A stretch of DNA of 64,000 nucleotides from Sedimenticola thiotaurini (GTDB lineage: Bacteria; Pseudomonadota; Gammaproteobacteria; Chromatiales; Chromatiaceae): NCBI GenBank assembly GCA_007713595.1, contig VMRY01000015.1, positions 2,244 to 66,243 on the forward strand. The letters run 5' to 3'. Position 1 is the stretch's first letter, and each line of letters starts with the position of its first letter. The notes under the pieces are model-generated. The model was not told where the DNA came from. It worked only from the letters and a program-made list of their open reading frames with translations, and ran no database searches. The position numbers and the translations under genes were made by a program. Positions 41,739 to 63,576 of the stretch are shown here, piece after piece.

Positions 41739-43673
41739 ATGGAGTTCAACACGAATAAAGAGCATGGTGGACTGGTCACATCTACCGTTCGAGGGAACAG
41801 AACCAGTGCAACCCCGGTAAATGATTGCATTGTTCAATCCTGGAAACGTTGTCTTGAGGATTATGATCTCGATCCTGAACGACGACCTGAACCGGTGGTG
41901 GTTGACAGATCGGAACTCAAAGAGCGCCAGGAAAAATCCTGCAGGCTGGTGGAGATCGCCCGCTCAGAGATGACCAATCTCTATCAGCAGGTGGCAGGTT
42001 CTGGGCACTCCATTCTGCTCACTGACAATGACGGTGTCGTACTCAATTATGTCGGTGATCCAATGTTCACCAATACCGCCGTCAAGACAGCACTGCAGAC
42101 GGGTGCGATCTGGAGTGAAAAGACCCAGGGCACCAACGGTATGGGTACCTGCCTAGTTGAGAAAAGGCCACTGATTATTCATCAGGATGAGCACTTCTTT
42201 TCAAAGAACACCCGGCTGACCTGCTCGGCTGCACCCATCTTCGATCCAACCGGTGAACTGGTGGCAGTCCTGGATGCCTCTGGTGAATCCAGACAAGCCC
42301 AACAACACACCATGGTGTTGGTCAACATGTCGGCACAGTTGATCGAGAACCGTCTGTTTCTCTGCAAGATGCGGGACAACTATATACTGCGTTTCCACAG
42401 TCGGCCGGAATTCATCAGCACGCTCGGTGAAGGGGTCATTGCCTTCAATGAAGAGGGACGCATTCAGGCCGCCAACCGTAGCGCCCTGTTCCAACTCGAC
42501 ATGAAAGATATTATAGGTCGCCCCTTCGAAGAGTTGTTTAGTCTTCGAACCAATCATGCACTTAGCAATGCACAGAATCAGGCGATGGTGCCCCTACCCG
42601 TGCGGGACGCCAATCAGGGCAGACGTTTCTATGCAAGCTTCCAACCGCCCAATCCAGACACGGGCGGTAAACGACCCATTGCCCGCTCGGCCCGTGCATT
42701 TGTCAAAGAGACGATCAGCGAAACACCCACTCTGGAAGATCTCGAATTTGGCGACAACCGCATGCGCCACAATATCGAGCGAGCAAAAAAGCTGCTGGAA
42801 CTGGATATCCCCTTTATCCTGCTGGGCGAAACCGGCTCGGGCAAAGATGTATTCGCCAATGCCGTACATAAGACCAGCAGCCGGGCAAATAAACCCTTTG
42901 TCGCGGTCAACTGCGCTTCACTACCTGAGACTCTGATCGAGAGCGAGCTATTCGGTTATCGCCCCGGCGCCTTTACCGGAGCCAGTAAGGAGGGCTCACG
43001 GGGAAAGATCGCCCAGGCCCATGGTGGCACCCTGTTCCTGGATGAGATCGGTGATATGCCGCTGCATCTGCAGGCGCGGCTGTTACGGGTACTGGAAGAG
43101 CGTGAAGTGATACCGCTGGGTAGTGAAACACCGATCAAGGTGGATATACGCCTGATCAGCGCCACCCATCAGAACCTTCAACTGCAGATCGAAGATGGCA
43201 GTTTCCGGGAGGATCTTTTCTACCGGCTGAATGGCATCAGCCTGCAGATGCCGCCGCTGCGTGACAGGGAAGACCGGCGCGCCCTGATCCAGCATATCAA
43301 GCAACTGGAGGCTGGAGGCGAAGACAAAGTCGTCATTGATGACGAGGCACTGGATGCCCTGGAGCATTACGAGTGGCCCGGCAACATGCGCCAGCTACGC
43401 AATATCATGCGCACCCTGATCGGCCTCTGCGACAATAACCGCATAACGGTCGATGATCTGCCCGAAGAGATTTTTAGCAACAGCAGCGAGCTGGGTGAAC
43501 CGAGACAGCGAGTCAGACCCAGTAACCCGTTGGATATCGCCGAACGTGACGCGATCATTCGTGAACTGGAGGCCGCCCACTGGAATGTCACTCGGGTTGC
43601 CACGAAATTGAACATCAGCCGCAACACTCTGTACCGCAAAATGAAACGGTACGATGTAAAACCCCCACGCTAG
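41739..43673 (+). CDS. GAF-domain sigma54-dependent activator (AcoR/AcxR-like, Fis HTH)
   Basis: SW.RC GAF start, GTNGMGT, GETGSGKD, ESELFGY, GAFTGA, FLDEIGDM and SRNTLYRKM. Confidence 0.95.
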   Translation: MEFNTNKEHGGLVTSTVRGNRTSATPVNDCIVQSWKRCLEDYDLDPERRPEPVVVDRSELKERQEKSCRLVEIARSEMTNLYQQVAGSGHSILLTDNDGVVLNYVGDPMFTNTAVKTALQTGAIWSEKTQGTNGMGTCLVEKRPLIIHQDEHFFSKNTRLTCSAAPIFDPTGELVAVLDASGESRQAQQHTMVLVNMSAQLIENRLFLCKMRDNYILRFHSRPEFISTLGEGVIAFNEEGRIQAANRSALFQLDMKDIIGRPFEELFSLRTNHALSNAQNQAMVPLPVRDANQGRRFYASFQPPNPDTGGKRPIARSARAFVKETISETPTLEDLEFGDNRMRHNIERAKKLLELDIPFILLGETGSGKDVFANAVHKTSSRANKPFVAVNCASLPETLIESELFGYRPGAFTGASKEGSRGKIAQAHGGTLFLDEIGDMPLHLQARLLRVLEEREVIPLGSETPIKVDIRLISATHQNLQLQIEDGSFREDLFYRLNGISLQMPPLRDREDRRALIQHIKQLEAGGEDKVVIDDEALDALEHYEWPGNMRQLRNIMRTLIGLCDNNRITVDDLPEEIFSNSSELGEPRQRVRPSNPLDIAERDAIIRELEAAHWNVTRVATKLNISRNTLYRKMKRYDVKPPR

Positions 43674-43709
43674 AGCGACAATACCCTTCACAGCTTAAAT
43701 CTGCATAGT

Positions 43710-43725
43710 TGGCCCGAGCCTTGCA
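43710..43725 (+). promoter_or_regulatory. sigma54 (-24/-12) promoter
   Basis: TGGCCCGAGCCTTGCA has exact GG-N10-GC spacing, 40 nt upstream of the operon start. Confidence 0.75.
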
Positions 43726-43765
43726 CTCAGCATAGGCAAAGAGCCAACTTGCAGGTTAACGAACT

Positions 43766-44266
43766 ATGAGCCGCTTTGCTGTACGGGTCCATCCTGGCGA
43801 ACTCCATTTCAACGCCGCACACTTCATCACCTTCAACCAGTGCTGCGAAAACATTCATGGCCACAACTTCCACCTAAAACTGGAGGCGCAAGGTAACAAC
43901 ACCCTAGATGGGTTCGTTATTGATTTTGTTCAGTTAAACAGGCTGGCTGCCGAGATCTGCAGTGAACTGCATGACGGCGTACTCATCCCAACCCAGAGCA
44001 AAGAGGTGACACTGACCGAACGTGACAATGACATGCTGGAGATCCGCAGTTATGACAAGTGTTTCATCCTCAGTCGCTCCAGCTGCATTCTGTTGCCGAT
44101 AGCCAACACCACAGCCGAGATGCTCGCTTACCACATCAGCAATCGACTGATTGAATCACTCCAGGCGCATCAGGGCTTGGGGAATCTAAAAACCCTGGAA
44201 ATCGCCGTGGAAGAGGCGGACCAGCAGTGGGGCATCTATCAGTGTGAACTATCCCATGACGGATAA
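43766..44266 (+). CDS. COG0720 (PTPS/QueD-fold) pterin synthase with the C-E-x2-H-G-H motif
   Basis: FNAAHF, CENIHGHNF, VIDF and NTTAE. Confidence 0.88.
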   Translation: MSRFAVRVHPGELHFNAAHFITFNQCCENIHGHNFHLKLEAQGNNTLDGFVIDFVQLNRLAAEICSELHDGVLIPTQSKEVTLTERDNDMLEIRSYDKCFILSRSSCILLPIANTTAEMLAYHISNRLIESLQAHQGLGNLKTLEIAVEEADQQWGIYQCELSHDG

Positions 44267-44807
44267 AATACGCACAGCCTGGGCTATTACCGGCTCGGGC
44301 CACTACCTGAAAGAGTGCCTGACACTGGCGGAGCAGCTCCCCGATGTTGATCTGTTCCTGAGCAAGGCGGCGGCCGAAGTGTTGCAGGTCTATGGCTTTC
44401 CCATAAAAGCATTGAAACAGCGGTTTAAGATCTTTCACGACAGTACCGCCAGCGCACCACCTGTCGGCCTGTTTTATGAAGGTATCTATGAGCAATTGAT
44501 CGTCGCACCCGCCACCTCCAACAGCGTAGCCAAAATGGTCTGTGGCATTTCTGACTCACTGGTCACCAATGTCTATGCCCAGGCAGGTAAGTGTCGCATC
44601 CCCAGTATTGTATTTGCCTGCGATGCAGCACCAGAGATGGAGACAGAAGCACCCGGCGGCACCGTCATGGTCTATCCCCGGCGCATTGATCTGGAAAACA
44701 CCCAACGCCTGATGGATTTTGAATACACCCAAGTAGTCACCTCACTTCAGTCACTCAAGGATGCCATTGGCATACCGGCCCTATGTCAGAACATCTCCTC
44801 TTTCTGA
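44244..44807 (+). CDS. AfpA/DmrB-like flavoprotein (dihydromethanopterin reductase candidate)
   Basis: AWAITGSGH and APATSNSVAKMVCGISDSLVTN flavoprotein motifs; H4MPT context. The true start may be ATG 44259. Confidence 0.85.
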   Translation: MNYPMTDKIRTAWAITGSGHYLKECLTLAEQLPDVDLFLSKAAAEVLQVYGFPIKALKQRFKIFHDSTASAPPVGLFYEGIYEQLIVAPATSNSVAKMVCGISDSLVTNVYAQAGKCRIPSIVFACDAAPEMETEAPGGTVMVYPRRIDLENTQRLMDFEYTQVVTSLQSLKDAIGIPALCQNISSF

Positions 44808-46177
44808 CCGGATCACTGGCCGAGACCAGCCTGAAACAGGTGCTGCATGAGATGGCACCAACCCCGGTGACCTGGGAAGTGCAGCCTCTGAAAATTAAAG
44901 TCGCCGCCCTGTTGACCGGTGAGATGATCAAACGACAGCTACCCCACACCGGCAACGCCGGGCGCGTAATAATCCCCGGCCGATGTTGTGGTGACCTGGA
45001 CGCACTAAGTGAACACTTTGGCGTCCCCTTTCAGCGCGGCCCGGAAGAGTTGCGTGATCTACCCGAATGGTTGGGGCAGGCTGGCAGGCCACCCGACCTG
45101 ACACAACACGATGTGCTGATTTTTGCAGAGATTGTCGATGCACCTAACCTGACATCCGAAGCCATCTGCCAACAGGCGGAACGCTTTCGACAGCAGGGCG
45201 CTGATGTGATTGATTTGGGTTGTCTGCCCGACCAGCCATTTCCCCACCTGGCCGAGAGCATGCGGTTACTCAAATCGCAAGGCTTCAAGGTCAGTGTTGA
45301 TTCACATCGAAGCGAAGAGCTTTTAACCGGCGGCAAAGCGGGTGCAGATTATCTGCTCAGCCTGACCGAAGAGACGCTGTGGATTGCAGACGAGGTCGAA
45401 TCAACCCCCATCATCATCCCAACCAGCTCTGGCGATCTGGCGAGCTTACAGCGATCCTGGGAGCAACTCACCGCCAAGGGACGTACCTGTTTTCTAGATC
45501 CTATCCTTGATCCGATCCATTTTGGTTTTACCGAATCTATCGTACGTTACCACCAAGCCCGTCAACGCCTGCCAGAGGCCATGATGATGATGGGCGTAGG
45601 CAACCTGACTGAGCTCACCGAAGCGGACACCAGCGGCATCAATGCCCTACTATTTGGCATCATCTCCGAACTGCATGTGGGTGCGGTACTGACCACGGCC
45701 GTCAGCCCCCACTGCCGATCCGCCATTCGTGAGGCGGATCTGTCACGGCGTATCATGTTTCGTGCACGGGCCGATCGCAGCCTGCCCAAACGGCTGCATG
45801 CTGGCCTGAGTAACCGTCACGCCCTTAACCCCTTCCCTTACACGCCAGCCGAGATAGAAACAGCGGCCGACCAGGTGAAGGACCGAAACTTCCGCATCCA
45901 GGTCAGCAAAGAGCATATTCACATCTACAACCGGGAAACCCTACTTCACGCGACCGACCCCTATGATCTGTTTCCCCATCTGGGCGTTGAAGAGAATGGC
46001 AGCCACGCCTTCTATCTTGGGGTGGAGCTGGCCCGCGCCGAGATTGCACTGCAACTGGGAAAGCGCTACACACAGGACCAACTGCTTGACTGGGGGGCCG
46101 CCTGCGCGCCCGTAGAAAAAGACCAGCTCACCTATGCCAAACCGGGCAGCACCAAGCAGCGCAAAAAAGTATCTTGA
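44783..46177 (+). CDS. Dihydropteroate synthase-like pterin-binding protein (Orf20)
   Basis: LFLTGSLAE start, GADVIDLGC, SVDS, DPILDPI and GVGNLTELTEAD. Confidence 0.88.
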   Translation: MSEHLLFLTGSLAETSLKQVLHEMAPTPVTWEVQPLKIKVAALLTGEMIKRQLPHTGNAGRVIIPGRCCGDLDALSEHFGVPFQRGPEELRDLPEWLGQAGRPPDLTQHDVLIFAEIVDAPNLTSEAICQQAERFRQQGADVIDLGCLPDQPFPHLAESMRLLKSQGFKVSVDSHRSEELLTGGKAGADYLLSLTEETLWIADEVESTPIIIPTSSGDLASLQRSWEQLTAKGRTCFLDPILDPIHFGFTESIVRYHQARQRLPEAMMMMGVGNLTELTEADTSGINALLFGIISELHVGAVLTTAVSPHCRSAIREADLSRRIMFRARADRSLPKRLHAGLSNRHALNPFPYTPAEIETAADQVKDRNFRIQVSKEHIHIYNRETLLHATDPYDLFPHLGVEENGSHAFYLGVELARAEIALQLGKRYTQDQLLDWGAACAPVEKDQLTYAKPGSTKQRKKVS

Positions 46178-47418
46178 AGTGGAGCCTATTAGGTTGGCCC
46201 AGCTCTTGCTCCCTTCAACCGATAATGAACACATACAATAGGCTGAATACTTTGGCGTCTGTTAGCTGCCCCTTCTGTGCCATGGTTTGTGACGATCTGT
46301 CACTGCCACTACACAATGAACAAACTATTCCTGGTCAGGGCACCTGCGAAAAAGCGGTTACCGGATTCACCCTTGCACTTGAGGCAACCCAGGCGATGCC
46401 GCTGTTAAAGGGTAAAGAGATCACCTGGACAGAGGCGCTGACCAAGGCCGGTGCCCTGTTAAGAGAGGCGAATCACCCCCTGATACATGGCCTGATCGGG
46501 GATCTTATCGACAGCAAGGCCGCACATAAACTGGCCGAGCATTTTGCAGGTACGGTTGATCACCGGCATGGTGATGCAATCGCCCGCAATCTACGCATCT
46601 ATCAGCAAGGGGGTTGGCAGGTCAGTAGTATGGGTGAAGTACGTAATCGGGCGGATCTGGTTATTTTGGTGTGTGACGACCTGGAAACCACCCTGCCCCG
46701 GCTGCAAGAAAAAGTATTGCACAGTGAAGCGCGGCTGCACACCTCTGCTCCACCAACCGTTTATACGCTAGATGAAAATCGACTTGAGACACTCTCGATC
46801 CTGCGCGCACGTCTGGCCAACAAGCCGTTGCAAACCGATACTTCGGCGACCGATGAACTGCTGTCGCTCATAAACAAAGCCGACTACCCCGTATTCATGA
46901 TCGGGCCACTACAAGATAAAGCGACCGAGCTGATCATACGCACCTGTGTGGGCCTGGTACGTGATATGAATGAGCAACAGCGTTGTGCGCTCCTGCTGCT
47001 CGGGACAGGTGAAGGCGACATCACTGCACAACTGAGCGGCGCCTGGCATAACGGTTTTGGCATCCGCACCAGCTTTACAAAAGGCTATCCGGTTCAGGAT
47101 CTACAGATGCATTCTGGAGATCGCTTGCTGCAGTCTGGGGAATCTGACCTGCTGGTCTGGATCAGCACCCTAAGTAGCGATCCACCACCTAACGTAACCC
47201 AGCCGACTATCGTTATCGGACATCCTGCCATGACCTTCAAAACTGACCCGCCCGAGCTATTCTTGCCTGTCAGTATTCCCGGCATTCATCGTGCCGGTTA
47301 TCTGCATCGTGCCGATGGTCTGCGCATGGTACCGCTCAATGCCTTGATAGAGAGTCCACTCTCAAGCAGTGCTGCACTCTGTGAGCAGTTGATCGCACAG
47401 GAGCCACGCCCATGTTGA
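46174..47418 (+). CDS. fhcB: Formyltransferase/hydrolase complex subunit B (FwdB homologue)
   Basis: CPFCAMVCDDL, GEVRNRADLV and RADGLRMVPL. The true start may be ATG 46225. Confidence 0.88.
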   Translation: MKWSLLGWPSSCSLQPIMNTYNRLNTLASVSCPFCAMVCDDLSLPLHNEQTIPGQGTCEKAVTGFTLALEATQAMPLLKGKEITWTEALTKAGALLREANHPLIHGLIGDLIDSKAAHKLAEHFAGTVDHRHGDAIARNLRIYQQGGWQVSSMGEVRNRADLVILVCDDLETTLPRLQEKVLHSEARLHTSAPPTVYTLDENRLETLSILRARLANKPLQTDTSATDELLSLINKADYPVFMIGPLQDKATELIIRTCVGLVRDMNEQQRCALLLLGTGEGDITAQLSGAWHNGFGIRTSFTKGYPVQDLQMHSGDRLLQSGESDLLVWISTLSSDPPPNVTQPTIVIGHPAMTFKTDPPELFLPVSIPGIHRAGYLHRADGLRMVPLNALIESPLSSSAALCEQLIAQEPRPC

Positions 47419-49046
47419 CTCGACTCAAAGGCGCACGCCTCTATGATCCGGTGAATCAGATTAACGGCGAGGTTGGTGATGTGTGGATTCGGGATAACCT
47501 GATCTGCGCCGCACCGGATAACCCTGCAGAAGCAGACAAGACCATTAACCTCGAAGGCAAGATATTAATGGCGGGGGCGATTGACATCCACAGTCATATC
47601 GCGGGCGGTAATGTGAACAGTGCCCGTGTTTTACTGCCAGAACAGCATCTGGCAGAACAGGCCCGCTACCCTCAGCACCCGTTTTCATCAGCCAAGTGGT
47701 CAGCTGCTGATACGGGCTATCGCTATGCCGAGATGGGATTTACCACCGTGGTAGAGCCTGCCGTGTTACCTATCAACGCGGCTCAGGTCCATGCCGAGCT
47801 GGCTGATATACCGATTATTGATACCGCTGGCCTGGCCATTGTCGGTAATGATGATTTTCTCCTGCGGATGCTGCGGTATAAGGCAGAGCAGGCACGCATC
47901 AATGACTATATCGCCTGGACCTTACACGCCACCCAATGCCTGGGAGTGAAGGTCATCAATGCCGGTGGGGCCACGGCATTCAAGTTTAATCAGCGCCAGC
48001 TCAATCTGGATGATGAAGTTCCGATGTACGGCATGAGCTCGCGGGACATTCTAACTGCCGTACAACGTGCCGTGGTGCAATTGGGCATTGCCCACCCGGT
48101 ACACGTTCACTGCAATAACCTGGGTATACCGGGCAATGTCTCTACCGCGCTGGAGACCATCAAGGCGGCGGAGGGTATGCCCATGCATCTCGCGCATGTG
48201 CAGTTCTATGGCTATGGTGACCAAGGCGATAGTGGCTTTTCATCTGGAGCCAAGGCCCTGGCTGACGCCGTTATGGCCAACCCAAATATTACGGTCGATG
48301 TTGGCCAAGTGCTATTTGGTCAAACCGTCACCATCTCCGGCGATGTGATGCGTCAATTTGATGCCCGACATATCGCCAACCCGAAAAAGTGGGTGGTATG
48401 GGAAGGTGAGGATGGCGGCGGCGGTATTGTGCCGTTCCAGTATCGTCCGAAAAACCAAGTCAATGCCCTGCAATGGGCTATCGGTCTGGAACTGTTCCTG
48501 CTGATCGATGATCCATGGCGCATCTTCTTCACCACCGATCACCCCAATGGTGCACCGTTCACTGCTTACCCGGAGCTGTTCAGGTTACTGATGGACCGCG
48601 ACTACAGAAACCTGTGGCTGGATAAGATCAACGCAAAATCGGCTGATATATCCCTGTTACGTCATCTGGATCGGGAGTATGACTTGTATGAGATCGCCAT
48701 CATGACTCGCGCTGCTCCGGCCAAGCTCCTGGGGCTGAGTGACCGGGGACATCTCTCTGTTGGTGCCATTGCTGACATTGCCGTTTACCAACCACAAGAT
48801 AATAAAGCAGCCCTATTTGGCAAAGCCGAACTGGTATTGAAAGATGGCGTTACGGTAGTTGAAAAAGGTCAGGTGGTTCACTCACTACAGGGTAAGACCC
48901 ATGCGGTTGCCCCTGGTTTCGATAGTGCTATTGAATCAGCAGTAAGCAGGTATTTTGACCGTTATCACCTGATGAAAATGGACCACTACAAACTTAGTCC
49001 ACAACATCTCCTTGAAACAGTAGGCAGTGAACTGGTACTGCACTGA
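47412..49046 (+). CDS. fhcA: Formyltransferase/hydrolase complex subunit A (FwdA-like amidohydrolase)
   Basis: GAIDIHSHIAGG, GVKVINAGG, HVHCNNLG, TTDHPNG and TRAAPAK.LG. Confidence 0.96.
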   Translation: MLTRLKGARLYDPVNQINGEVGDVWIRDNLICAAPDNPAEADKTINLEGKILMAGAIDIHSHIAGGNVNSARVLLPEQHLAEQARYPQHPFSSAKWSAADTGYRYAEMGFTTVVEPAVLPINAAQVHAELADIPIIDTAGLAIVGNDDFLLRMLRYKAEQARINDYIAWTLHATQCLGVKVINAGGATAFKFNQRQLNLDDEVPMYGMSSRDILTAVQRAVVQLGIAHPVHVHCNNLGIPGNVSTALETIKAAEGMPMHLAHVQFYGYGDQGDSGFSSGAKALADAVMANPNITVDVGQVLFGQTVTISGDVMRQFDARHIANPKKWVVWEGEDGGGGIVPFQYRPKNQVNALQWAIGLELFLLIDDPWRIFFTTDHPNGAPFTAYPELFRLLMDRDYRNLWLDKINAKSADISLLRHLDREYDLYEIAIMTRAAPAKLLGLSDRGHLSVGAIADIAVYQPQDNKAALFGKAELVLKDGVTVVEKGQVVHSLQGKTHAVAPGFDSAIESAVSRYFDRYHLMKMDHYKLSPQHLLETVGSELVLH

Positions 49047-49053
49047 GGCGCTT

Positions 49054-49626
49054 ATGAGTGAACGCATTCATGAAGTTATCGTGATTACCCACAACCATGA
49101 TGGCTCACCCCACATGGCACCCATGGGTATTCGTCAGCGCAACAAAAACTGGCTGATCGCCCCATTTCGCCCGTCACGCACACTGGAAAACCTGCTGCGA
49201 GAGGGTGTAGCCACTCTCAATACCACAGACGATATGCGTATCTATGCAGGCTGTCTGACAAAACACTATGACTGGCCATTGGTTGAATGTGAGAAAATAA
49301 ACGGCCATCGATTGAAAGATGCACTCAGTCATAAAGAGATCCAAGTAGAGCAGGTAATAGAAGACACGCAACGACCACAACTGCTATGCAAGGAGATCCA
49401 TCAAGTGAATCACCGCCCTTTCAGTGGTTATAACCGGGCGCAGGCCGCCGTACTGGAGTTGGCCATACTGGTAAGCAGACTGCATCTACTCACCGAAGAA
49501 AAACTGAACAGTGAGATCAACTACCTGCAGATCGCAATAGAGAAAACGGCGGGAAGAAGTGAACGAGAGGCATGGAATTGGCTAATGCAATCGGTAGATG
49601 ACTATCGTAAGAGGAATTGCGCATGA
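49054..49626 (+). CDS. DUF447 family protein (Orf19-like)
   Basis: PHMAPMGI, PFRPSRTLENL, NRAQAAVLELAI..SR and IEKTAG. Confidence 0.88.
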   Translation: MSERIHEVIVITHNHDGSPHMAPMGIRQRNKNWLIAPFRPSRTLENLLREGVATLNTTDDMRIYAGCLTKHYDWPLVECEKINGHRLKDALSHKEIQVEQVIEDTQRPQLLCKEIHQVNHRPFSGYNRAQAAVLELAILVSRLHLLTEEKLNSEINYLQIAIEKTAGRSEREAWNWLMQSVDDYRKRNCA

Positions 49627-50704: not shown

Positions 50705-50756
50705 AAGTTATTACCCAAGTAGTCAGCACCGAGACAGTATTGGTTAGAAAGTCACC

Positions 50757-54979: not shown

Positions 54980-54988
54980 ACGAACTCC

Positions 54989-55675: not shown

Positions 55676-56894
55676 CCTGACATGCCGCCACCGTCGACTG
55701 ACCAAACTTATTAAGTAAGCGTTTTCTGTTGGCCGCCTGTGCTGGCAAATTTTTAAACGGATGCAGCACCGGATCAGATCCTGCCGCCTGTTGTTCCGCC
55801 AGCGTACGTCCTTGATAATCACACCAGGAGTTAGTCGTTTCATATAAGCGGATACCACTTAACCCTGGCAGATAGTCTATCAGCTGCTCCCAGATATAGA
55901 CGCAGAGCATCTCCGTACTGGAACGCCAGGCCAGCTCCTCTGCGGCATAGTTAAGATGGTGGTGATCAAACCGCTCAATAATCAGTTGATTAACCACTTG
56001 TTTGAGATAACCATAATCAACGACACAACCCGTTACCGGATCAATTCGTCCAGTCACTTCAACCTGTAATACATAGCGCCCACCATGCAGATTGGAACAC
56101 TTCGCCGGGTGATCCGTTATAAAATGCGCAGAGTCAAACACCAGCTCTTTAGTTACACTCGCCTGCGGTGTTTCAGCTTTAAATCTTTCCCAGGCAGTGG
56201 GTATGGCAATCAACCGACTCTTCAGCAGATCAAGCAGCTTGATACCATCAGCCAAGGTCTGGGTTCTCAGAAGCAACTCATCCGACGAGTCTGATAGTTT
56301 CAACTGTTGACATTGAATATTGAAATCACGGGCCAGCTGTTCGCGCACAGACTCTGCATAGATGGGTCGACTGAACGCCATAAACAGATAGCCGGCATGC
56401 CACTCTGCAACGTGCGCCATATAGACAGCCAGCGCACCAAGAAAAGCGGGAGGCGGCTCAGGCGTGGCCCATTCGTTGACCAGGTTTCGCAACGGAACAC
56501 GCAACCGGTTTTTTGCGACTACGCGGTGAGAGTCGGCACGGTACTCATAATCCTGATGAAACTGGAATCCGTAATCGCTCAGATAATCCAGCGCCCAGAG
56601 CAGCAGATCCAGACGACGCACCTCGCCCGGCACTTCTACGAAAGCATCACGCTCTTGCAGCAGTCCAGACCAGCGCAGACCCAACAACGTTTGGCGGGCG
56701 GCTTCTGTCGGCCTTGCAACAGGGCGGGAATAATTATCAACATGATCAGGCAGATTGATCTGATCACTGTGCAGAATCATATCCAACGGAAGATGGTGAC
56801 GTATGGCATACTCCTGAAGTGTCAGGCTACTGCAGTTAAGCAGATGACCATTATCCAGTTGGTATATTGTTTCACCGCATTCCAGACACTGCAT
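55668..56894 (-). CDS. Fusion protein: Zn-finger-like N-terminus, degenerate LAGLIDADG-like middle, PTPS/QueD-fold C-terminus
   Basis: MQCLECG...HL...LTLQEYA; C-terminal FDSAHF, CSNLHGG, VVDY..LK, FDHHHLN and LYET; GGGAG RBS before ATG 56894. Confidence 0.75.
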   Translation of the reverse strand: MQCLECGETIYQLDNGHLLNCSSLTLQEYAIRHHLPLDMILHSDQINLPDHVDNYSRPVARPTEAARQTLLGLRWSGLLQERDAFVEVPGEVRRLDLLLWALDYLSDYGFQFHQDYEYRADSHRVVAKNRLRVPLRNLVNEWATPEPPPAFLGALAVYMAHVAEWHAGYLFMAFSRPIYAESVREQLARDFNIQCQQLKLSDSSDELLLRTQTLADGIKLLDLLKSRLIAIPTAWERFKAETPQASVTKELVFDSAHFITDHPAKCSNLHGGRYVLQVEVTGRIDPVTGCVVDYGYLKQVVNQLIIERFDHHHLNYAAEELAWRSSTEMLCVYIWEQLIDYLPGLSGIRLYETTNSWCDYQGRTLAEQQAAGSDPVLHPFKNLPAQAANRKRLLNKFGQSTVAACQVN

Positions 56895-56952
56895 AGACAA
56901 CTCCCGTAATGACAAAGGATGTGTGGGGCCCACCGGACCCCACAGCATTCAC

Positions 56953-57465
56953 TTACGCGTGAGCAGCAAACGGATGTTCGTTGGTCGACTTGCCCGCAAT
57001 TACCTCAGCCGGGGTAGGCGTACCAGCAACCGCACGCTTAATGGACTGCTTGGTGGCTTCGTAGTTGTAATCCTGGATCTTGGCATCATCTGCCGCTTCC
57101 CAGTGAATGAATACACCCACACAGATAAACACATCATCCGCTTCATCAGCCGGAATAGTGCCATCTTCCAGACAATCAGCCACAGCCATCGCCACGCCGC
57201 GCTGTGCAGGACCAAACATCTGCACCGCTTGAGTCGCACCTTTGATGGTTACTTTATTGAACATCATGGTGTGCGGCTTACATGGCAGGTTAGGCGCAAC
57301 AACAGCCAGCAACGATGTAAAGCCATCTTTGTTATTCACCAGACCATTACAGAATGCCGTTTCTGCAGCAGAGCCACGCGGGCCCATGATCAGGTCGATG
57401 TGTGCCACTTCATTACCGTCGCCGACCAGTGACTCTCCCACCATCGTTTTATTAATAATTGCCAT
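56953..57465 (-). CDS. fae: Formaldehyde-activating enzyme
   Basis: [34 protein letters not shown] and YNYEATK. Confidence 0.98.
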
Positions 57466-57489
57466 ATCGGATCTCCTCAGATTATTGGC

Positions 57490-58413
57490 TTATAGTATTT
57501 GCGGTGTTTCGGCCACACTTGGCTTCATCATCCGCGGATAATTCCGGGCAACCCCGGTGTTGTGTATCACCTGTTTCTGCAAGTGATGGATGAATACGCC
57601 AGCAACGCAAAGGTCTGCTGTCGTACCAGGATTTATTGATTGCTGTTTCAGTTTTCTATCCATCTCAATCAACAGCTGTTGACGCACAGATGGTTGATCT
57701 GTTTCGAGGAATTTCTGATGTACCGCTGCCGCCCATCGGCAGACCGTAGCGGCTTGGGTCGAACCCTGTTTACGTTCGATATGACTGTCCTGATAGAGCG
57801 CCAACAGATAAAGGAATAGATCGGTGACGGCCAATACTTCTTCACCATGCTGTTCAATAGCGGTTGCCAGATAGGGCTGAACAACCCACTGCAACTCATA
57901 GAAACCATTGCTGTATTGTCGTGCGATCAGATCTCGTTGCGCAGCCAGCGTCATAACATCAATCAGTGGCAGTGTGGCAACACCAGATACATCCTCTGCA
58001 TCAGACTGACCAAGGCCACCCGGGTTGGCCATTCGGATGGCCGCAAAGAGTTTGCTGCTGTCATCAACCTGAGATGCAGCCAGTACATTTCTCACGGCGT
58101 CCTGCAGTGACAACTCAGGATAATCAATAACTGCCTGAATAATGGGGGCACAGAGAAGAATAATGCCGAGATTGGTATTACAACCAACCGCCTGCTGGGT
58201 CGCGCCGACCGCTTCCAGAATACGCTGACCCAATGAATACGACGGGTTGGTTATAACCTTCGCACTAACCTGTGCACTGGCTAAGAACTGATCGGCAACC
58301 ATGCCATGACCCGCCGACTGATGCGATACATTGCCGGGCTTAAAAGCCGCCACATCCAATGTGCAGGCATGCTGATAGAGATCGCTGATTTGTTGCGACG
58401 TTATCCGGCTCAT
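57490..58413 (-). CDS. CitG-like triphosphoribosyl transferase (Orf7)
   Basis: KPGNV, NTNLGIILL, DSHIERK.G and NPGTTADL. Confidence 0.9.
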   Translation of the reverse strand: MSRITSQQISDLYQHACTLDVAAFKPGNVSHQSAGHGMVADQFLASAQVSAKVITNPSYSLGQRILEAVGATQQAVGCNTNLGIILLCAPIIQAVIDYPELSLQDAVRNVLAASQVDDSSKLFAAIRMANPGGLGQSDAEDVSGVATLPLIDVMTLAAQRDLIARQYSNGFYELQWVVQPYLATAIEQHGEEVLAVTDLFLYLLALYQDSHIERKQGSTQAATVCRWAAAVHQKFLETDQPSVRQQLLIEMDRKLKQQSINPGTTADLCVAGVFIHHLQKQVIHNTGVARNYPRMMKPSVAETPQIL

Positions 58414-59321
58414 TGCATCACCTCACAACGGTGATACCCGGCACATTTGCTTAACAGATCATCAGCCAGTGCCGCTGCAATATCTATGGATATCACCTGC
58501 TGAAGACCGCGCCAGGCAGGGACACTGTTAACTTCAATGACCCACCAGCGCCCATCCACATCACGCATCAGATCTACACCAGCATAATCCATACTCAGGC
58601 TGGCCACGGCACGCTCAGCCAGTTGCTTCAACTGACCTTCAGGTAAAGCAGCATGACAGACACCACCCTGCGCCACATTCGCCAGCCAACCCTTTGTAGA
58701 GCGACGCATAGCAGCGACTGCCACACCGGCAATAACAAATACACGCCAATCGCAGGCCAAGCCTTCAGGCTGTTCGATAAACCGTTGCAGATACCAGACA
58801 TTGTGGATTGCATTGGCATCCGGGAGGTCCGTCTGATTATTTATCTTTACAATGCCCTTCCCTTGCGAACCAAATAGGGGTTTGCAAATTAACGAATGGC
58901 CTTGGGCTATTTCACGTGCCGTAACCGCTTCAGCCATGGAGCGTTCACTACAGACCCAGGTGGGTGGTGTCGGAATGTTCTCCTGAGCGAGTCTCGCCGT
59001 TGTCAGGCATTTATCGACAGAGCGTTCAATAGCGCGGCCATCGTTGTAGACCCGCACACCCAACGTTTTCATGACATGAAGAATATTCAGGTAGAACACC
59101 ACCTGCTGCAATGAACCGCCCGGTATGCCCCGCACAAACACCGCATCCGGCAGACCCATCTCAAACCCGGGCAGTACCACACGTACTTTCCGCACCATCT
59201 CCAGCCGGGCATGCTGCAGAGAGCTAAACAGGCAGGTAACCCCCCTGGCAATAAACGCATCACGCAGACATCGGCCGTGCCAACCGGGGTCATCCGTTAT
59301 AATGGCAACCCGCACAGTCAC
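58410..59321 (-). CDS. RimK-family ATP-grasp glutamate ligase (Orf5/MyfA-like)
   Basis: [28 protein letters not shown] and EVNSVPAW. Confidence 0.9.
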
Positions 59322-60301
59322 AACGTCACACCAAACGAGTCGAGCAGCAGTTGTTGGTCTATCTGACCACTGGTAAAACTACGACCCGTATTAATATTGC
59401 TGACAAGGGTACGGGCCGGACTGAACAGCATCGGATCAATTTTGAAAAAGTCATATTCATAGGCCTTGAACACCTCAGCAAAAGGCCGGCCATAATCTTT
59501 CGAGCTGCTACTCGGTAGCGAATCGGCCAGTGCCTCTGCAGCAGCATCATCACCCGACACAAACAGATGAACCTGCCCGGCAAACAGGATGGCATCATTG
59601 GTTCGGCCCATCGCCTGCAGAAAATCCGGGGCCGGCGGTGGTAACGGTGCCGTTGCCATACCGTCGACGATATCTATTAGCGAAAAACCCAGTTCATGGG
59701 CCTTATGCAATGCCACTTCCAACACCCGGGCCACCACCTGTGTACTGCCCGCAAGACTACAGGTCGGTGTTAAAATCAAACGCAACTGCTCAGGGGCAAC
59801 ACCACAATCAGATGCAATCTTTTCGGTTAACGCCAACGGCGGTAGTTTGTCCACTTCCAACACCAACGTGGCGCAACCGGCATTGTCATTCAGTTCAAGA
59901 TGTTCGTAGAGCTTCTCCTTGCGCGCAAGAATACGCCCCGGGCCAGAGCCTAATGCATGAAATGCCTGCTTTCCTTCACCGTGAGAAAGACTCCATCCGG
60001 CATACTGACTCCCCAGACAGGCGATTACCGGGTTGTTGCTGTGAACGGTAATATTGGTACTCCAACCTGACACCGTACCGGCAGCTTGTAGTGCAACATG
60101 ACCTTGTCCACCCATGCAGATCTCTGCAATGCGCCGTCCTGCCTCCAGGCTACCCTGACAGGCTATTCCCGCATCAACCACCAGCACACCGTTATCAAGT
60201 CGTTGCGCTACCAAACGAAGTGAGGCGGCATCGGCAATAAGCGCATCAACCAGCCGCAGCGTGTCTCTATTCAAAGAACCCGTTGAAGTTAACTGCGCCA
60301 T
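59318..60301 (-). CDS. mch: Methenyl-H4MPT cyclohydrolase
   Basis: [42 protein letters not shown] and [12 protein letters not shown]. Confidence 0.97.
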
Positions 60302-60302
60302 A

Positions 60303-61412
60303 TCAAGCGGCCTCTCGGGAGGAGGATGCAATAAATCGCGCAATCCGCCCCTTTCTGTCACGCAAGCGTTCAAGAACTTGCGTGCGGTTAATGCCACTCG
60401 CATGCAACCCACAAACAGGGGAACCTTGTTGAACAGATGTGCCCGCAGGAGGTAGGTCAGAGCACCAGGCTGGCCAATCAATTTGCCCTATTGTCAGATC
60501 CTGCGGTGCATAAAAAATATGGCTCCCCCGAACACGACTATTCACTGGTGACCTTTTCAGCACACCTTCACAAGCGGCAATATGTAAACTCACCCCGCCA
60601 AGATGATGTTGCTGGTCATAGAGTTCTAACGTTGCAGATGGTCGTGCGTTGAGATCAAGGAGCTGTACCCGGCCATTTGCCAGGACAAAATCAATACCAT
60701 TGGCACCGCGCAACTGCAGTGCCTTAGTCAGTTTCAATGCGACAGATTGCATTTGAGTGATGACGGCCTGACCAGGATCGAAGTGACTCAATGAACCGGC
60801 ATAGTTGAAGTCACCCCGCACCGTGTCCCTGGCAAACAGTTGATTAATACCCAGTACCTGCACCTCACTGCCGTTGGCAAGAAAGGTTATGGAGCAGATT
60901 ACTCCTGCAATATACCGTTGATAGTAATGTGGCCCTGAGCTGTGACTGCCTGAATTAATGAAATGGACACCTATACCACCACAGCTTCCGGACTTTTTAA
61001 TAAGCCAACCATCGGTCACGGCCGGTCGCTGAAATTGTACCCGCGGATAGGCAATACCGAGATCGTCCAACAGTGAAAACAGTGATTCAGCATCCGCCAG
61101 CAGTTTCAGCGTCTGGTAACTGTTCCCCAGACAACGGCCCAACGGAATCAACTGTTGCAGCTGATCAGGCTCCGCTTCAAAGCCTGCCCCAAAAAGCCAG
61201 GGCGTTTTATGTGAGCGCTGCACCTCAAAACAAGTCGCGACAAGACCTGCCGGATCAGTCTGCTCTGCCTTGATGGCAACATGACATACCGCCTCTGTAT
61301 CCCGGTCAGAAAAGAGATCAACCCCGGTCACTGCGTACCCACTGCGTGCAGCAGATTGTGCAAGATAACGCACACTGTTACCGACAATGAGAAGTGGCCG
61401 ATCCTCATTCAT
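60303..61412 (-). CDS. ATP-grasp protein, COG2232-like (Orf17/MyfB-like)
   Basis: [29 protein letters not shown] and LNARPSAT. Confidence 0.85.
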
Positions 61413-61413
61413 A

Positions 61414-62313
61414 TCAGGCCTTACTCCGGGCGACATTCAGTGCCTGCGAGAAATCAAGATAGACAGGGGTTTCGGACTCAATCATCTGCTTCAACATGGC
61501 GCGTTGCGTCTGATATTTCACATTGCCCACCGCCAAGGCACCAATGCCCAATGCTTTCATTGGTGTTGAAGACATCGCCACACCGTTGTCCATAACACCC
61601 AGTCCGGCAATTCCTTCTGGCGGTACCGCGTTAACATCACAAAACACCTGCACCGATTTTGCTGCCGCAAGATGCAGTTCATTCAGCACTTGCACCCCGG
61701 CTTTGGCTGCACCAAAGACAAGATCAGCCTCTGCCAGCAAGGTTGTGATTTCTGCATCCGTACTTCCCGCCGCACCCAGTACCGAAACATGGTAGCGCTC
61801 CGAACAGTAACCGGCCGCCACATCAGCTTTCTCTTTACTCTCATGGCTTACGATGGTGGCGCAGGCACCCGCCTGTGCCGCCAGCATGGCGCAGGTCATA
61901 CCCACAGGACCGGTACCACCAAACACCACTACCCGCTTATCTTGCAACGATTCGCCTGTACGTATCTGGTACTGTTTTTCAGCACAAGCCACCATCGCGG
62001 CGGCCGTGGTAAAGGCACCACTGGGATCGGCAAAAACAGAAACTTCAAAGGGTGGCACCATGGCTCGTTTAGCCGCATCAAGCATGTCCATGGCATTGTG
62101 AATATCACGCCCACCAATAAATATGCCGGTGCGTTTAACACCGTTTGGACCGCGGGAAAATATCGCATCCTGCGTGAAGTCGCCTACTTGCCAGACACCC
62201 AACCCGGTATAGGGAATGCAGTGATTCCAACCGGCATCGACTGCCATATTGACGTCGAACGGACTTAGGTTGGGGACTTCAGTAAACATGTGCAGAATCG
62301 TTTGGTATTTCAT
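61414..62313 (-). CDS. mtdB: NAD(P)-dependent methylene-H4MPT dehydrogenase
   Basis: SPFDVNMAVDAG, QDAIFSRGP, ADPSGAFTTAAA, GGTGPVG and DVNAVPP.G. Confidence 0.93.
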   Translation of the reverse strand: MKYQTILHMFTEVPNLSPFDVNMAVDAGWNHCIPYTGLGVWQVGDFTQDAIFSRGPNGVKRTGIFIGGRDIHNAMDMLDAAKRAMVPPFEVSVFADPSGAFTTAAAMVACAEKQYQIRTGESLQDKRVVVFGGTGPVGMTCAMLAAQAGACATIVSHESKEKADVAAGYCSERYHVSVLGAAGSTDAEITTLLAEADLVFGAAKAGVQVLNELHLAAAKSVQVFCDVNAVPPEGIAGLGVMDNGVAMSSTPMKALGIGALAVGNVKYQTQRAMLKQMIESETPVYLDFSQALNVARSKA

Positions 62314-62316
62314 AAC

Positions 62317-63327
62317 CTACAGTGCTTCCTTCGTAAGCCTATTCGTCTCTTCAATGGCTACCCGGCTCCCCTCATTACAGGCCGCCGTTATCTGAAAACT
62401 TAACGGTGAAAGCTCTCCTACACGCTTGCGGGCCAGTCTCTCAAGCTCTACAGCAGAGGAATAATCTGGTAGTAAAATGAAACCGGTTGGCCCCCATGAA
62501 CTCTGCCCAACACCGGCATAGCCCTTTGACTCTGCCCAGCCCAACAGATCAGCAACCGCGGGACTGGTATAGCGGCCACCCTGTGCAGCGGAAAAATGAT
62601 CGCCAACACTGCGTTGCAATTCGGCAATACCCTGAGCAACAGGATCGAGCTTATGTTCTCTGATACCCGGCAGGATCTGCATCAAGGTCAAGTGACAGAG
62701 ATGGGCCGCTTGCGTCGCAGGAAAGGGCGGCAGCCGCTTGAATGCCTCCACCTCTTGCTTGCCATGCAAGCCTTGCCCGCGCGTATCCATGACCAATAAC
62801 AAGTGCCACTCATCTGGAAACGGCATCTGCACTGTAAGTGGTGGTGGATCACCTTCATCACCCACACCGCTGTCGACCATGAAACCGCCGTAATCAAATC
62901 CGCCAATGCCAATACCGGAACGTCGACCACGCTGCATTTCTGATGCCACTTGCGAGGTACTGGCAGACACGTCAAACAGCGCATGAATGGCATGCCCCAC
63001 TGCCAGCGCCATCTGAGTTCCCGAGCCTAACCCTGCATGATCAGGAATGGCCTCTTCGAGGGTAATATCAACGCCTTCCTCGATGCCAAGCAGATCCAGT
63101 ATGTGGCGGGCGTATCCTGCAGCACGTTCAGCCGCAGGACCACGGGCCGAGACAGAGGGAGCCACCTGCATCTGCAGAGTCGTCCTGAAGGCATCAATAC
63201 TCAGACCAAGACTGCCGAACCGACGCCCCAGTGCACCGCTGATATCGAGAAAACCCAGATGCAATCGTGCTGCCGTACTAACAACGACACGTTGCTGCGT
63301 TTGATGATGTGACCACTGTTCATACAT
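62317..63327 (-). CDS. mptG: Beta-ribofuranosylaminobenzene 5'-phosphate synthase
   Basis: ARLHLGFLD, HAGLGSGTQ (GHMP fold), RGRRSGIG and GQSSWGPT. Start either TTG 63345 or ATG 63327. Confidence 0.95.
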   Translation of the reverse strand: MYEQWSHHQTQQRVVVSTAARLHLGFLDISGALGRRFGSLGLSIDAFRTTLQMQVAPSVSARGPAAERAAGYARHILDLLGIEEGVDITLEEAIPDHAGLGSGTQMALAVGHAIHALFDVSASTSQVASEMQRGRRSGIGIGGFDYGGFMVDSGVGDEGDPPPLTVQMPFPDEWHLLLVMDTRGQGLHGKQEVEAFKRLPPFPATQAAHLCHLTLMQILPGIREHKLDPVAQGIAELQRSVGDHFSAAQGGRYTSPAVADLLGWAESKGYAGVGQSSWGPTGFILLPDYSSAVELERLARKRVGELSPLSFQITAACNEGSRVAIEETNRLTKEAL

Positions 63328-63340
63328 ATTCAGCAGCGTC

Positions 63341-63356
63341 TGCAACTCCCGTGCCT
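63341..63356 (-). promoter_or_regulatory. sigma54-type promoter motif for the mptG operon
   Basis: AGGCACGGGAGTTGCA, nearly consensus TGGCACG-N4-TTGCA. Confidence 0.55.
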
Positions 63357-63415
63357 GCTTTTACAAATTCATAAAAACAGCCAGTTGTACAAGGGCCTCC
63401 TGTTTCGGGTGCGTC

Positions 63416-63459
63416 TGTCATGTGTCACTGTGTCACGGCTCAACGGCGCACCCATGACA
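63416..63459. promoter_or_regulatory. Candidate enhancer (UAS) between the divergent promoters
   Basis: TGTCA at 63416, 63423 and 63431, plus inverted TGACA at 63455. Confidence 0.4.
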
Positions 63460-63523
63460 ATCCAAAAACCCGCACTGCTTTGAAACCAGCCACACCAGCG
63501 CAACACACCCTACGGAACCATCC

Positions 63524-63539
63524 CGGCATAGCTTTTGCC
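63524..63539 (+). promoter_or_regulatory. sigma54-type promoter motif for fhcD
   Basis: CGGCATAGCTTTTGCC with GG-N10-GC spacing, 37 nt upstream of the ATG. Confidence 0.6.
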
Positions 63540-63576
63540 TTGCACAGTTTCATCAATTAGAAGAGTGGTTATTTCG

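What the first reader, a model, noticed from the sequence alone, without database searches (positions are those of the whole stretch)
41739..63576. A sigma54 regulon for the C1 pathway: one GAF activator, three -24/-12 promoters and a shared enhancer
Seen: TGGCCCGAGCCTTGCA (43710, +), AGGCACGGGAGTTGCA (63356-63341, -) and CGGCATAGCTTTTGCC (63524, +) each precede one of the three main operons. TGTCA/TGACA repeats lie between the divergent pair. The mptG motif would place +1 about 3 nt before ATG 63327, giving a near-leaderless mRNA. Established: sigma54 promoters need an enhancer-binding protein, and AcoR-like GAF activators respond to small alcohols or carbonyls. Inference: the adjacent activator switches on the whole pathway. 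I am not aware of this being the standard control of H4MPT genes.
Basis: partly seen in the sequence, partly recalled or inferred. Interest (0 to 1): 0.72.

Follow-up and report, generated by a model that had tools for sequence, protein, structure and literature searches.

The report
Sigma-54 switch for formaldehyde-oxidation genes
A dedicated sigma-54 activator protein sits beside the methanopterin-dependent formaldehyde-oxidation genes and most likely turns them on through conserved -24/-12 promoters, one of which lies so close to its gene that the messenger RNA should have almost no leader. No transcriptional regulator of these genes turned up in the literature I could search.

Summary
All three -24/-12 motifs and the TGTCA/TGACA repeats are at the stated coordinates.

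The raw motif count in the window is not above chance (2 found, 1.1 expected). Placement and conservation are what make the sites convincing:
- All three sites and a 56-bp block between the divergent pair are footprinted in three congeners whose flanking DNA has diverged.
- The activator (MimR_N-GAF-PAS-AAA+ with GAFTGA, plus HTH) occurs only in those genus members that carry the H4MPT island.
- In a class-wide sample of 400 genomes, all 13 with a sensor hit at 50% identity or more carry H4MPT biosynthesis genes. The activator lies within about 3 kb of them in 9 of 11 resolvable cases, and beside the dmrA-like gene in a tenth.
- The enhancer core is TGTCA-N19-TGACA. It starts 101-103 nt upstream of the mptG promoter in six genera.
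- In 16 of 18 genomes an in-frame ATG follows the mptG promoter 16-mer by 11-14 nt, which predicts a 1-4 nt leader.

Caveats:
- The fhcD promoter is weak by matrix score, but canonical sites occupy the orthologous position elsewhere.
- No enhancer was found for the promoter at 43710.
- Two transcription units (mfnD to mfnE, and the hisA-like gene) have no sigma-54 site.
- The ligand is unknown, and no transcript data could be obtained.

I found no literature linking sigma-54 to H4MPT genes.

The parts
41739..43673 (+). Sigma-54 enhancer-binding protein, 644 aa. Domains: MimR_N and GAF sensor, weak PAS_4, AAA+ sigma-54 interaction domain with GAFTGA, C-terminal HTH_8.
   Evidence: Pfam: Sigma54_activat 1.2e-66, GAF 1.7e-12, HTH_8 3.3e-13. 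GAFTGA, Walker A and Walker B are read in the sequence. MimR_N comes from precomputed Pfam. The best NCBIfam hit is DhaR at 340 bits, below its cut-off of 551.
43710..43725 (+). P1, a -24/-12 promoter (TGGCCCGAGCCTTGCA) in front of the PTPS-like to AdoMetDC-like operon. Predicted +1 is near 43736, giving a leader of about 30 nt.
   Evidence: Matrix score 15.5, among the top 36 in the genome. TTGGCCCG-N4-CTTGC is kept in G003, G004 and G006 despite diverged flanks and a 180-bp insertion in G004. Equivalent sites follow the activator gene in G017, G298, G145, G374, G357 and metagenome locus L133.
43766..50704 (+). Operon downstream of P1: PTPS-like, DmrA/AfpA-like flavoprotein, DUF6513 dihydropteroate-synthase-like, fhcB, fhcA, DUF447, MfnB-like, AdoMetDC-like.
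   Evidence: NCBIfam and Pfam. The same gene order follows the activator in L133, G298 and G145.
51031..54979 (-). mfnD-like, mfnF-like (TIGR03123), pabB and mfnE-like unit. No sigma-54 site was found for it.
   Evidence: NCBIfam. No site scoring 9 or more on the minus strand between 54331 and 57163.
54989..55675 (+). HisA-like gene lying antisense between the two minus-strand units. It starts 9 bp from the mfnD-like ATG.
   Evidence: Pfam His_biosynth 1.7e-21, sequence read. The same wedge is present in G135 and G357, which belong to other families.
55668..63327 (-). mptG operon: mptG, mtdB, ATP-grasp, mch, MptN-like, CitG-like, fae, PTPS fusion.
   Evidence: NCBIfam and Pfam. Synteny is identical in G003, G004 and G006.
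63341..63356 (-). PmptG, a -24/-12 promoter (AGGCACGGGAGTTGCA). Predicted +1 is near 63330, 3 nt before ATG 63327, so the mRNA is near-leaderless.
   Evidence: Matrix score 15.8. AGGCACG-N4-TTGCA is kept in the congeners with 12 nt to the ATG, and G017 has 14 nt. In 11 of 12 further genomes a strong 16-mer is followed by 11-12 nt and an in-frame ATG.
63406..63461 (.). Conserved enhancer block. Its core is the inverted repeat TGTCA-N19-TGACA at 63431-63459. Two further TGTCA half-sites lie at 63416 and 63423, and a GGGTGCG/CGCACCC pair is also present.
   Evidence: The block is nearly identical in four congeners. The core occurs at the same offset from the mptG promoter in G298, G135, G357 and G374 (N19) and in G145 and G322 (N17). 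It occurs once in the window against 0.13 expected. It is unique in the genome by nhmmer.
63524..63539 (+). PfhcD, a weak -24/-12 promoter (CGGCATAGCTTTTGCC) in front of fhcD-fhcC. Predicted +1 is near 63550, giving a leader of about 27 nt.
   Evidence: Matrix score is only 8.6. CCGGCATAGCTTTTGCCTT is kept in all four congeners, with one spacer change in G004. Canonical sites occupy the orthologous divergent position: G298 CGGCACAGCTATTGCT, G145/G322 TGGCACGGACCCTGCT, G357/G374 TGGCACGATCYCTGCT.
63577..64000 (+). fhcD (298 aa, runs off the window), followed on the contig by fhcC.
   Evidence: NCBIfam TIGR03119. Full length and 83-91% identity in congeners. fhcC identified by its GXGXG motif.

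Best explanation
This is a self-contained sigma-54 regulatory module of an accessory H4MPT/methylofuran formaldehyde-oxidation island.

Proposed mechanism:
- The activator encoded at 41739-43673 binds as an oligomer to the enhancer at 63406-63461, whose core is TGTCA-N19-TGACA.
- The core is centred about 115 nt upstream of the mptG start and about 105 nt upstream of the fhcD start.
- When its MimR_N/GAF sensor is relieved by a small C1-related signal, ATP hydrolysis remodels sigma-54 holoenzyme at the two divergent promoters.
- The same activator probably also drives the promoter directly behind its own gene (43710). That operon encodes pterin and methanofuran biosynthesis proteins and fhcBA.
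- The mptG operon mRNA starts 1-4 nt before its AUG, so it is translated as a leaderless message.

Shown by sequence and comparison: the motifs, their conservation, the enhancer geometry, the gene linkage and the ATG spacing.

Inferred: sigma-54 and activator dependence, activator binding to the palindrome, the start sites and the ligand.
For: - Domains and GAFTGA are present, and rpoN is in the genome.
- Within the genus, the activator ortholog and mptG occur in the same 4 of 10 genomes. They also co-occur in G017, a different genus of the same family.
- In the class-wide sample, 13 of 13 genomes with a sensor hit at 50% identity or more carry the DUF6513 gene (base rate 52 of 400). The activator is within about 3 kb of it in 9 of 11 resolvable cases. 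In a tenth, G017, it lies beside the dmrA-like gene but 45 kb from DUF6513.
- The same linkage is seen in a metagenome contig and in Thioalkalivibrio.
- In the tree, a clade of 16 activators holds 14 H4MPT-linked members. The Pseudomonas homologs next to aldehyde dehydrogenase form a separate clade.
- All three promoters and the enhancer are footprinted in the congeners.
- The enhancer core sits at a fixed offset in six genera, and divergent canonical partner promoters are present in several of them.
- The ATG spacing holds in 16 of 18 genomes.
- TGTCAC/GTGACA clusters lie upstream of the activator gene itself in six other lineages.
- mptG in four families without the activator has no comparable site upstream.
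Against: - No transcript, TSS or binding data exist here.
- The motif count in the window is not above chance on its own.
- PfhcD departs from consensus at -26, -21, -20 and -11.
- No enhancer copy or palindrome lies near P1.
- P1 is absent in G135, G323, G146, G377 and G339, where the activator gene abuts the next gene.
- The mfnD-to-mfnE and hisA-like units lack sigma-54 sites.
- The genome has about 18 activator paralogs that could in principle serve these promoters.
- My sigma-54 matrix was written from memory of a published compilation and is approximate.
Confidence: 0.75

Rival explanations
1. The sites are real sigma-54 promoters, but a different activator drives them (for example an NtrC-type paralog). 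The adjacent activator would then control only its downstream operon, or something else.
For: The genome holds about 18 sigma-54 activator homologs. No enhancer of the divergent-region type is found at P1. No binding data exist.
Against: The activator and island co-occur and are linked across many families. The TGTCA/TGACA motif recurs both at mptG promoters and upstream of the activator gene in other lineages.
Confidence: 0.1
2. The mptG message is not leaderless. Transcription would start further upstream from another promoter, or translation would start at a different codon. The ATG next to the -12 element would then be incidental.
For: No TSS data exist. G377 and a Paraburkholderia carry the site about 100-200 nt upstream of mptG, so a leader is tolerated in some lineages. 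I found no documented sigma-54-driven leaderless mRNA in the searched library.
Against: An in-frame ATG lies 11-14 nt after the 16-mer in 16 of 18 genomes from about ten genera. The distance from that ATG to the conserved protein core varies. There is no room for a Shine-Dalgarno sequence. In the window there is no other in-frame start codon before the conserved RLHLGF core.
Confidence: 0.25
3. The fhcD-proximal element (63524-63539) is not a sigma-54 promoter. It would instead be an operator for another factor, or part of a sigma-70 promoter.
For: The matrix score is 8.6, and 3091 sites in the genome score as well or better. It has four departures from TGGCACG-N4-TTGCW.
Against: GG-N10-GC is intact. 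The element is identical in congeners. Its distance to the ATG is appropriate. Canonical sigma-54 sites occupy the same divergent position in G298, G145/G322 and G357/G374. fhcDC must be made together with fhcBA, which sits in the operon downstream of P1.
Confidence: 0.15
4. All the motif matches are chance and no dedicated regulation exists.
For: Two consensus matches in 64 kb is what shuffles give.
Against: The sites are placed in the right orientation before operons. They are footprinted in the congeners. The same architecture recurs in many families.
Confidence: 0.02

Closest known systems
AcoR / EatR-type sigma-54 activators (acetoin and acetaldehyde/ethanolamine catabolism; recalled from memory, not tested here)
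   Same: Same domain order: N-terminal GAF-type sensor, AAA+ with GAFTGA, HTH_8. Source databases name homologs 'transcriptional regulator of acetoin/glycerol metabolism'. Pseudomonas homologs at 46-48% identity sit next to aldehyde dehydrogenase genes.
   Different: It forms a separate clade in the tree. Its targets are H4MPT, methylofuran and Fhc genes, not acetoin or aldehyde dehydrogenase genes. The ligand is unknown.
DhaR (E. coli dihydroxyacetone kinase operon regulator)
   Same: Best NCBIfam hit over the full length, with GAF-PAS-AAA+-HTH architecture.
   Different: It scores 340 bits against a cut-off of 551, so it is not a DhaR equivalog. There are no dha genes nearby.
MimR (Pfam MimR_N) and BmoR, alcohol/ketone-responsive sigma-54 activators of monooxygenase operons
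   Same: The precomputed Pfam MimR_N domain hits the N-terminus. These are small-molecule-sensing activators placed next to their target operon.
   Different: The target genes are different. There is no evidence here about which molecule is sensed.
MmoR, sigma-54 activator of the soluble methane monooxygenase operon in methanotrophs (from memory)
   Same: Sigma-54 control of a C1-oxidation operon by a neighbouring activator.
   Different: MmoR controls the methane-oxidation step, not formaldehyde oxidation or cofactor synthesis. No homology test was made here.
Known regulators of formaldehyde metabolism (FlhRS, HxlR, FrmR, AdhR/NmlR, EfgA/TtmR) as listed in the review PMC8879981
   Same: They would serve the same physiological purpose, which is matching formaldehyde removal to formaldehyde supply.
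   Different: None is a sigma-54 activator, and none is described as controlling H4MPT pathway genes.

Membership tests
Bacterial enhancer-binding protein (sigma-54 activator) | AAA+ sigma-54 interaction domain with GAFTGA loop, Walker A and Walker B | tested here: met
   PF00158 at 1.2e-66. GETGSGK, GAFTGA and LFLDEIGD are read in the translation.
Bacterial enhancer-binding protein (sigma-54 activator) | C-terminal DNA-binding HTH and N-terminal regulatory domain | tested here: met
   HTH_8 at 3.3e-13, GAF at 1.7e-12, PAS_4 at 1.8e-6. MimR_N from precomputed Pfam.
Sigma-54-dependent promoter | GG and GC dinucleotides 10 nt apart with TGGCAC-N5-TTGCW context, upstream of a gene, in a genome that encodes RpoN | tested here: met
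   rpoN is above the cut-off. P1 and PmptG have 1 mismatch each. PfhcD keeps GG-N10-GC but has 4 mismatches. All three are conserved.
Sigma-54-dependent promoter | Transcription start about 12 nt after the GC, with dependence on rpoN and an activator | not testable with these tools
Enhancer (UAS) of a sigma-54 activator | Repeated or inverted binding sites about 80-150 bp upstream of the promoter, conserved with the activator | tested here: met
   TGTCA-N19-TGACA starts 101-103 nt upstream of the mptG 16-mer in the window genus, G135, G357 and G374, and 115 nt upstream in G298. An N17 variant sits at the same offset in G145 and G322. Binding itself was not tested.
DhaR equivalog (NF008485) | Score above the curated cut-off of 551 bits | tested here: not met
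   340.3 bits.
Leaderless mRNA (5 nt or fewer between TSS and start codon; definition as quoted in PMC12754779) | AUG start codon at or within 5 nt of the 5' end, with no Shine-Dalgarno sequence | tested here: inconclusive
   The geometry predicts a 1-4 nt leader, and the codon is ATG in all 16 genomes. The 5' end itself was not mapped.

The most novel reading that the evidence does not exclude
This activator clade would be a dedicated sensor of formaldehyde, or of another C1 signal such as methanol or methanethiol-derived formaldehyde. It would switch on H4MPT-linked oxidation in sulfur-oxidising and other non-model proteobacteria. It would do so partly through a sigma-54 promoter that produces a leaderless mRNA. 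I found no description of that promoter-translation coupling, and here it is conserved across about ten genera.
Probability: 0.35. Interest if true: 0.8.

Novelty: new member of a known kind. Interest (0 to 1): 0.62.

Why it matters
No transcriptional regulator of the H4MPT formaldehyde-oxidation pathway, or of methanopterin and methylofuran biosynthesis genes, appears in the review and papers I could search. In model methylotrophs the pathway is usually treated as constitutive.

A portable module made of one activator, one palindromic enhancer and defined -24/-12 promoters would explain how facultative carriers of this island keep it silent until it is needed. It would also offer a tightly off/on C1-responsive switch for synthetic methylotrophy and biosensing.

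The conserved abutment of a sigma-54 promoter with the mptG start codon gives a directly testable case of leaderless translation from an activator-dependent promoter.

Tried and rejected
- A cluster of TGACA motifs inside the PTPS-like gene (44007-44060) resembled the enhancer, but it is not conserved in the congeners and is taken as chance.
- A second enhancer copy for P1 was sought three ways and not found. I used nhmmer with the 63-nt block, a genome-wide scan for TGTCA-N19-TGACA, and inspection of 300 nt upstream of P1-type sites in ten genomes. A run of perfectly conserved codons at 43593-43620 encodes the HTH recognition helix, so I did not read it as a site.
- Simple sigma-70 and terminator scans of 41150-43800 and 50500-55900 gave nothing above shuffles.
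- A tRNA-Leu 3'-end repeat that would mark the island as integrated at the tRNA was not found in the assembly.
- An apparent low identity of FhcD among congeners was my own frame error. The true identity is 83-91%.
- In Paraburkholderia there is no promoter between the activator and dmrA.
- In Pollutimonas and an uncultured betaproteobacterium, activator homologs lie next to an mfnD-like ATP-grasp gene, but those genomes lack mptG.
- Literature searches for sigma-54 with H4MPT, RpoN with fae, enhancer-binding protein with formaldehyde, and sigma-54 with leaderless mRNA found nothing on point. The Burkholderia fungorum LB400 paper was not held.
Full report
**What is in the region.** Profile searches identify the genes of 41739-64000 as an H4MPT/methylofuran formaldehyde-oxidation island.
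- A 644-aa sigma-54 activator lies at 41739-43673.
- A plus-strand operon runs from 43766 to 50704. It encodes a PTPS-like protein, a DmrA/AfpA-like flavoprotein, a DUF6513 dihydropteroate-synthase-like protein, fhcB, fhcA, DUF447, an MfnB-like protein and an AdoMetDC-like protein.
- A minus-strand unit at 54979-51031 holds mfnD-like, mfnF-like, pabB and mfnE-like genes.
- A plus-strand hisA-like gene lies at 54989-55675.
- A minus-strand operon at 63327-55668 holds mptG, mtdB, an ATP-grasp gene, mch, an MptN-like gene, a CitG-like gene, fae and a PTPS fusion.
- fhcD starts at 63577 and is followed on the contig by fhcC.

**The activator.** It has a GAF domain, a weak PAS_4 match, a sigma-54 interaction domain and HTH_8. 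Walker A, GAFTGA and Walker B are visible in the translation. Precomputed Pfam adds an N-terminal MimR_N domain. The genome encodes RpoN.

**Check of the observation.**
- The count alone is unremarkable. TGGCACG-N4-TTGCW with at most one mismatch gives 2 matches in the window against 1.14 expected.
- With an approximate matrix written from memory of the published sigma-54 compilation, the sites at 43710 and 63356 score 15.5 and 15.8. These are the two best scores in the window, and both sit in intergenic DNA facing an operon. Only 36 sites in both strands of the 3.86-Mb genome score 15 or more.
- Many of those 36 lie in gaps right behind other activator genes, which suggests the matrix finds real promoters.
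- The fhcD site scores only 8.6 and would not be credible on its own.

**Conservation within the genus.** Three congeners (G003, G004, G006) carry the same island in the same order. In the intergenic regions the flanks are unalignable, but four elements stand out:
- TTGGCCCG-N4-CTTGC, kept even though G004 has a 180-bp insertion beside it;
- AGGCACG-N4-TTGCA;
- CCGGCATAGCTTTTGCCTT;
- a 56-bp block, GGGTGCGTCTGTCATGTGTCACTGTGTCACGG-N8-CGGCGCACCCATGACAAT.

G017, another genus of the family, has mptG divergent from fhcB with AGGCATGCAAATTGCA and TGGCACGTTTTCTGCA. Its activator ortholog is followed by TGGCTCACTTTTTGCG and dmrA.

**Linkage of the activator to the island.**
- Within the genus, the activator ortholog and mptG occur in the same 4 of 10 genomes.
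- In an even sample of 400 genomes of the class, 13 have a sensor-region hit at 50% identity or more. All 13 carry the DUF6513 gene, whose base rate is 52 of 400.
- In 9 of the 11 cases where the assembly allows a judgement, the two genes lie within about 3 kb. In a tenth, G017, the activator lies beside dmrA but 45 kb from DUF6513.
- A metagenome contig at 71-76% identity has the activator followed by the identical eight-gene operon. A Thioalkalivibrio genome has it followed by DUF6513-fhcB-fhcA-DUF447. A Paraburkholderia has a 44% homolog inside its H4MPT cluster.
- In a maximum-likelihood tree, a clade of 16 activators (support 85/94) holds 14 H4MPT-linked members. The Pseudomonas homologs next to aldehyde dehydrogenase genes form a separate, well-supported clade.
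- Homolog names point to sulfur-oxidising Gammaproteobacteria such as Ca. Thiodiazotropha, Thioalbus, Thioalkalivibrio and Thiohalocapsa.

**The enhancer.**
- Oriented on the mptG promoter, the inverted repeat TGTCA-N19-TGACA starts 101-103 nt upstream of the 16-mer in the four congeners, G135, G357 and G374.
- In G298 it starts 115 nt upstream, about one helical turn further. An N17 variant sits at the same offset in G145 and G322.
- In the window it is 63431-63459. The only copy in the window is this one (0.13 expected). Of the eight copies in the genome, it is the only one near a sigma-54 site.
- Its centre lies about 115 nt from the predicted mptG start and about 105 nt from the predicted fhcD start, which is classical activator geometry.
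- Clusters of TGTCAC/GTGACA also lie upstream of the activator gene in six other lineages. In G135 and G145 they accompany a -24/-12 site, which suggests autoregulation there.

**The weak fhcD promoter.** In lineages with the same divergent layout, the partner of the mptG promoter is canonical:
- CGGCACAGCTATTGCT in G298;
- TGGCACGGACCCTGCT in G145 and G322;
- TGGCACGATCYCTGCT in G357 and G374, where it faces fhcB.

The window's CGGCATAGCTTTTGCC occupies the orthologous position, 166-168 bp from the mptG site. It is invariant in the genus apart from one spacer change. Because fhcDC must be made together with fhcBA, common control is also functionally sensible. I rate it a probable but weak sigma-54 promoter.

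**The near-leaderless mptG message.**
- In the window, 13 nt separate the 16-mer from ATG 63327. In the congeners the gap is 12 nt and in G017 it is 14 nt.
- In 12 further genomes carrying the activator clade, 11 have a strong 16-mer (scores 13.9-19.0) followed by 11 or 12 nt and then an ATG in frame with mptG.
- The distance from that ATG to the conserved protein core varies from a few to about 16 codons.
- With the last base of the 16-mer at -11, the ATG begins at +2 to +5.
- There is no room for a Shine-Dalgarno sequence. In the window, no other in-frame start codon precedes the conserved RLHLGF core.
- The exceptions are G377 and Paraburkholderia, whose leaders are 100-200 nt.
- A rough chance estimate is 1/16 per independent lineage, which makes the pattern in about nine further genera very unlikely by chance.
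- The prediction falls under the usual definition of a leaderless mRNA, 5 nt or fewer, as quoted in PMC12754779. I found no description of a sigma-54-driven leaderless message in the searched library.

**What remains open.**
- P1 has no recognisable enhancer. The block is unique in the genome, and no palindrome lies within 300 nt of P1-type sites in ten genomes.
- P1 is present after the activator gene in the window genus, G017, G298, G145, G374, G357 and the metagenome contig. It is absent in G135, G323, G146, G377 and G339, where the genes are probably co-transcribed.
- The mfnD-to-mfnE unit and the hisA-like gene have no sigma-54 site. Whether they are read through from the mptG promoter or have their own promoters is unknown.
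- The ligand is not addressed by any result here. Relatives of this activator type are known, from memory, to sense small alcohols, aldehydes or ketones.

**Comparison with what is known.** Sigma-54 activators with GAF sensors placed next to their catabolic targets are a well-known kind (AcoR, EatR, MimR, BmoR, MmoR, FhlA). This protein is not a DhaR equivalog, scoring 340 bits against a cut-off of 551. A 2022 review of formaldehyde metabolism lists FlhRS, HxlR, FrmR, AdhR, EfgA and TtmR. It lists no sigma-54 activator and no regulator of H4MPT genes. Full-text searches that combined sigma-54 or RpoN with tetrahydromethanopterin or fae returned only unrelated co-mentions.

**Verdict.** I classify the finding as a new member of a known kind: a dedicated activator clade with a defined enhancer and promoters for H4MPT islands. 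It has one unusual feature, the conserved leaderless geometry. Interest is 0.62.

Noticed in passing
window 41289-41375 and the AT-rich stretch 41376-41738: tRNA-Leu(CAA) lies directly left of the activator gene. In G003 and G004 the queA-tRNA-Leu locus is far from their H4MPT island, so the island sits in different chromosomal contexts within the genus. G007 has an exact 60-nt copy of the tRNA 3' end about 9 kb downstream of the tRNA, which looks like an att repeat. No such repeat was found in the window's own assembly.
   Followed up: partly
window 54989-55675 (+): A hisA-like gene is wedged antisense between the PTPS-fusion gene and the mfnD-like gene. Its start is 9 bp from the mfnD ATG, and its stop overlaps the PTPS-fusion stop. 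The same wedge exists in G135 and G357, which belong to other families, so the layout is old.
   Followed up: partly
own genome C48:21100-22735 (locus L159) and metagenome locus L133:300-720: An SBP56 gene (methanethiol-oxidase-like) has TGGCATCTTTATTGCG upstream and a divergent TGGCATCAAAGCTGCA. The same pair, TGGCATCTTCATTGCA and TGGCATCAAAGCTGCT, is found before SBP56 and SCO1/SenC in L133. A 12-bp palindrome TGACATATGTCA abuts the promoter in the own genome. The end of the window's contig carries a Redoxin gene and a MauG/SCO1 fusion gene. Methanethiol may be a source of the formaldehyde.
   Followed up: partly
L133:2700-3000: In the metagenome relative, a Pterin_bind gene and the NAD-formate dehydrogenase operon (fdsGBA-fdhD-fdsD) are divergently preceded by TGGCACGGGGCTTGCT and TGGCACAGCTCTTGCG. 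The latter is almost identical to that contig's P1 (TGGCACAGCGCTTGCG). The regulon may therefore extend to formate oxidation there.
   Followed up: no
own genome C79:73324, C139:44625, C118:3660: Three other high-scoring -24/-12 sites lie 100-230 bp behind the stop codons of other sigma-54 activator genes. The layout of an activator gene followed at once by its target promoter is thus recurrent in this genome.
   Followed up: no
G374 (L140) and G357 (L142), leader of the PTPS-like operon: A conserved inverted repeat TGTGGA-N17-TCCACA lies just downstream of the -12 element of the P1-type promoter in both genomes. It may be an operator or an RNA hairpin. It is not present in the window.
   Followed up: no
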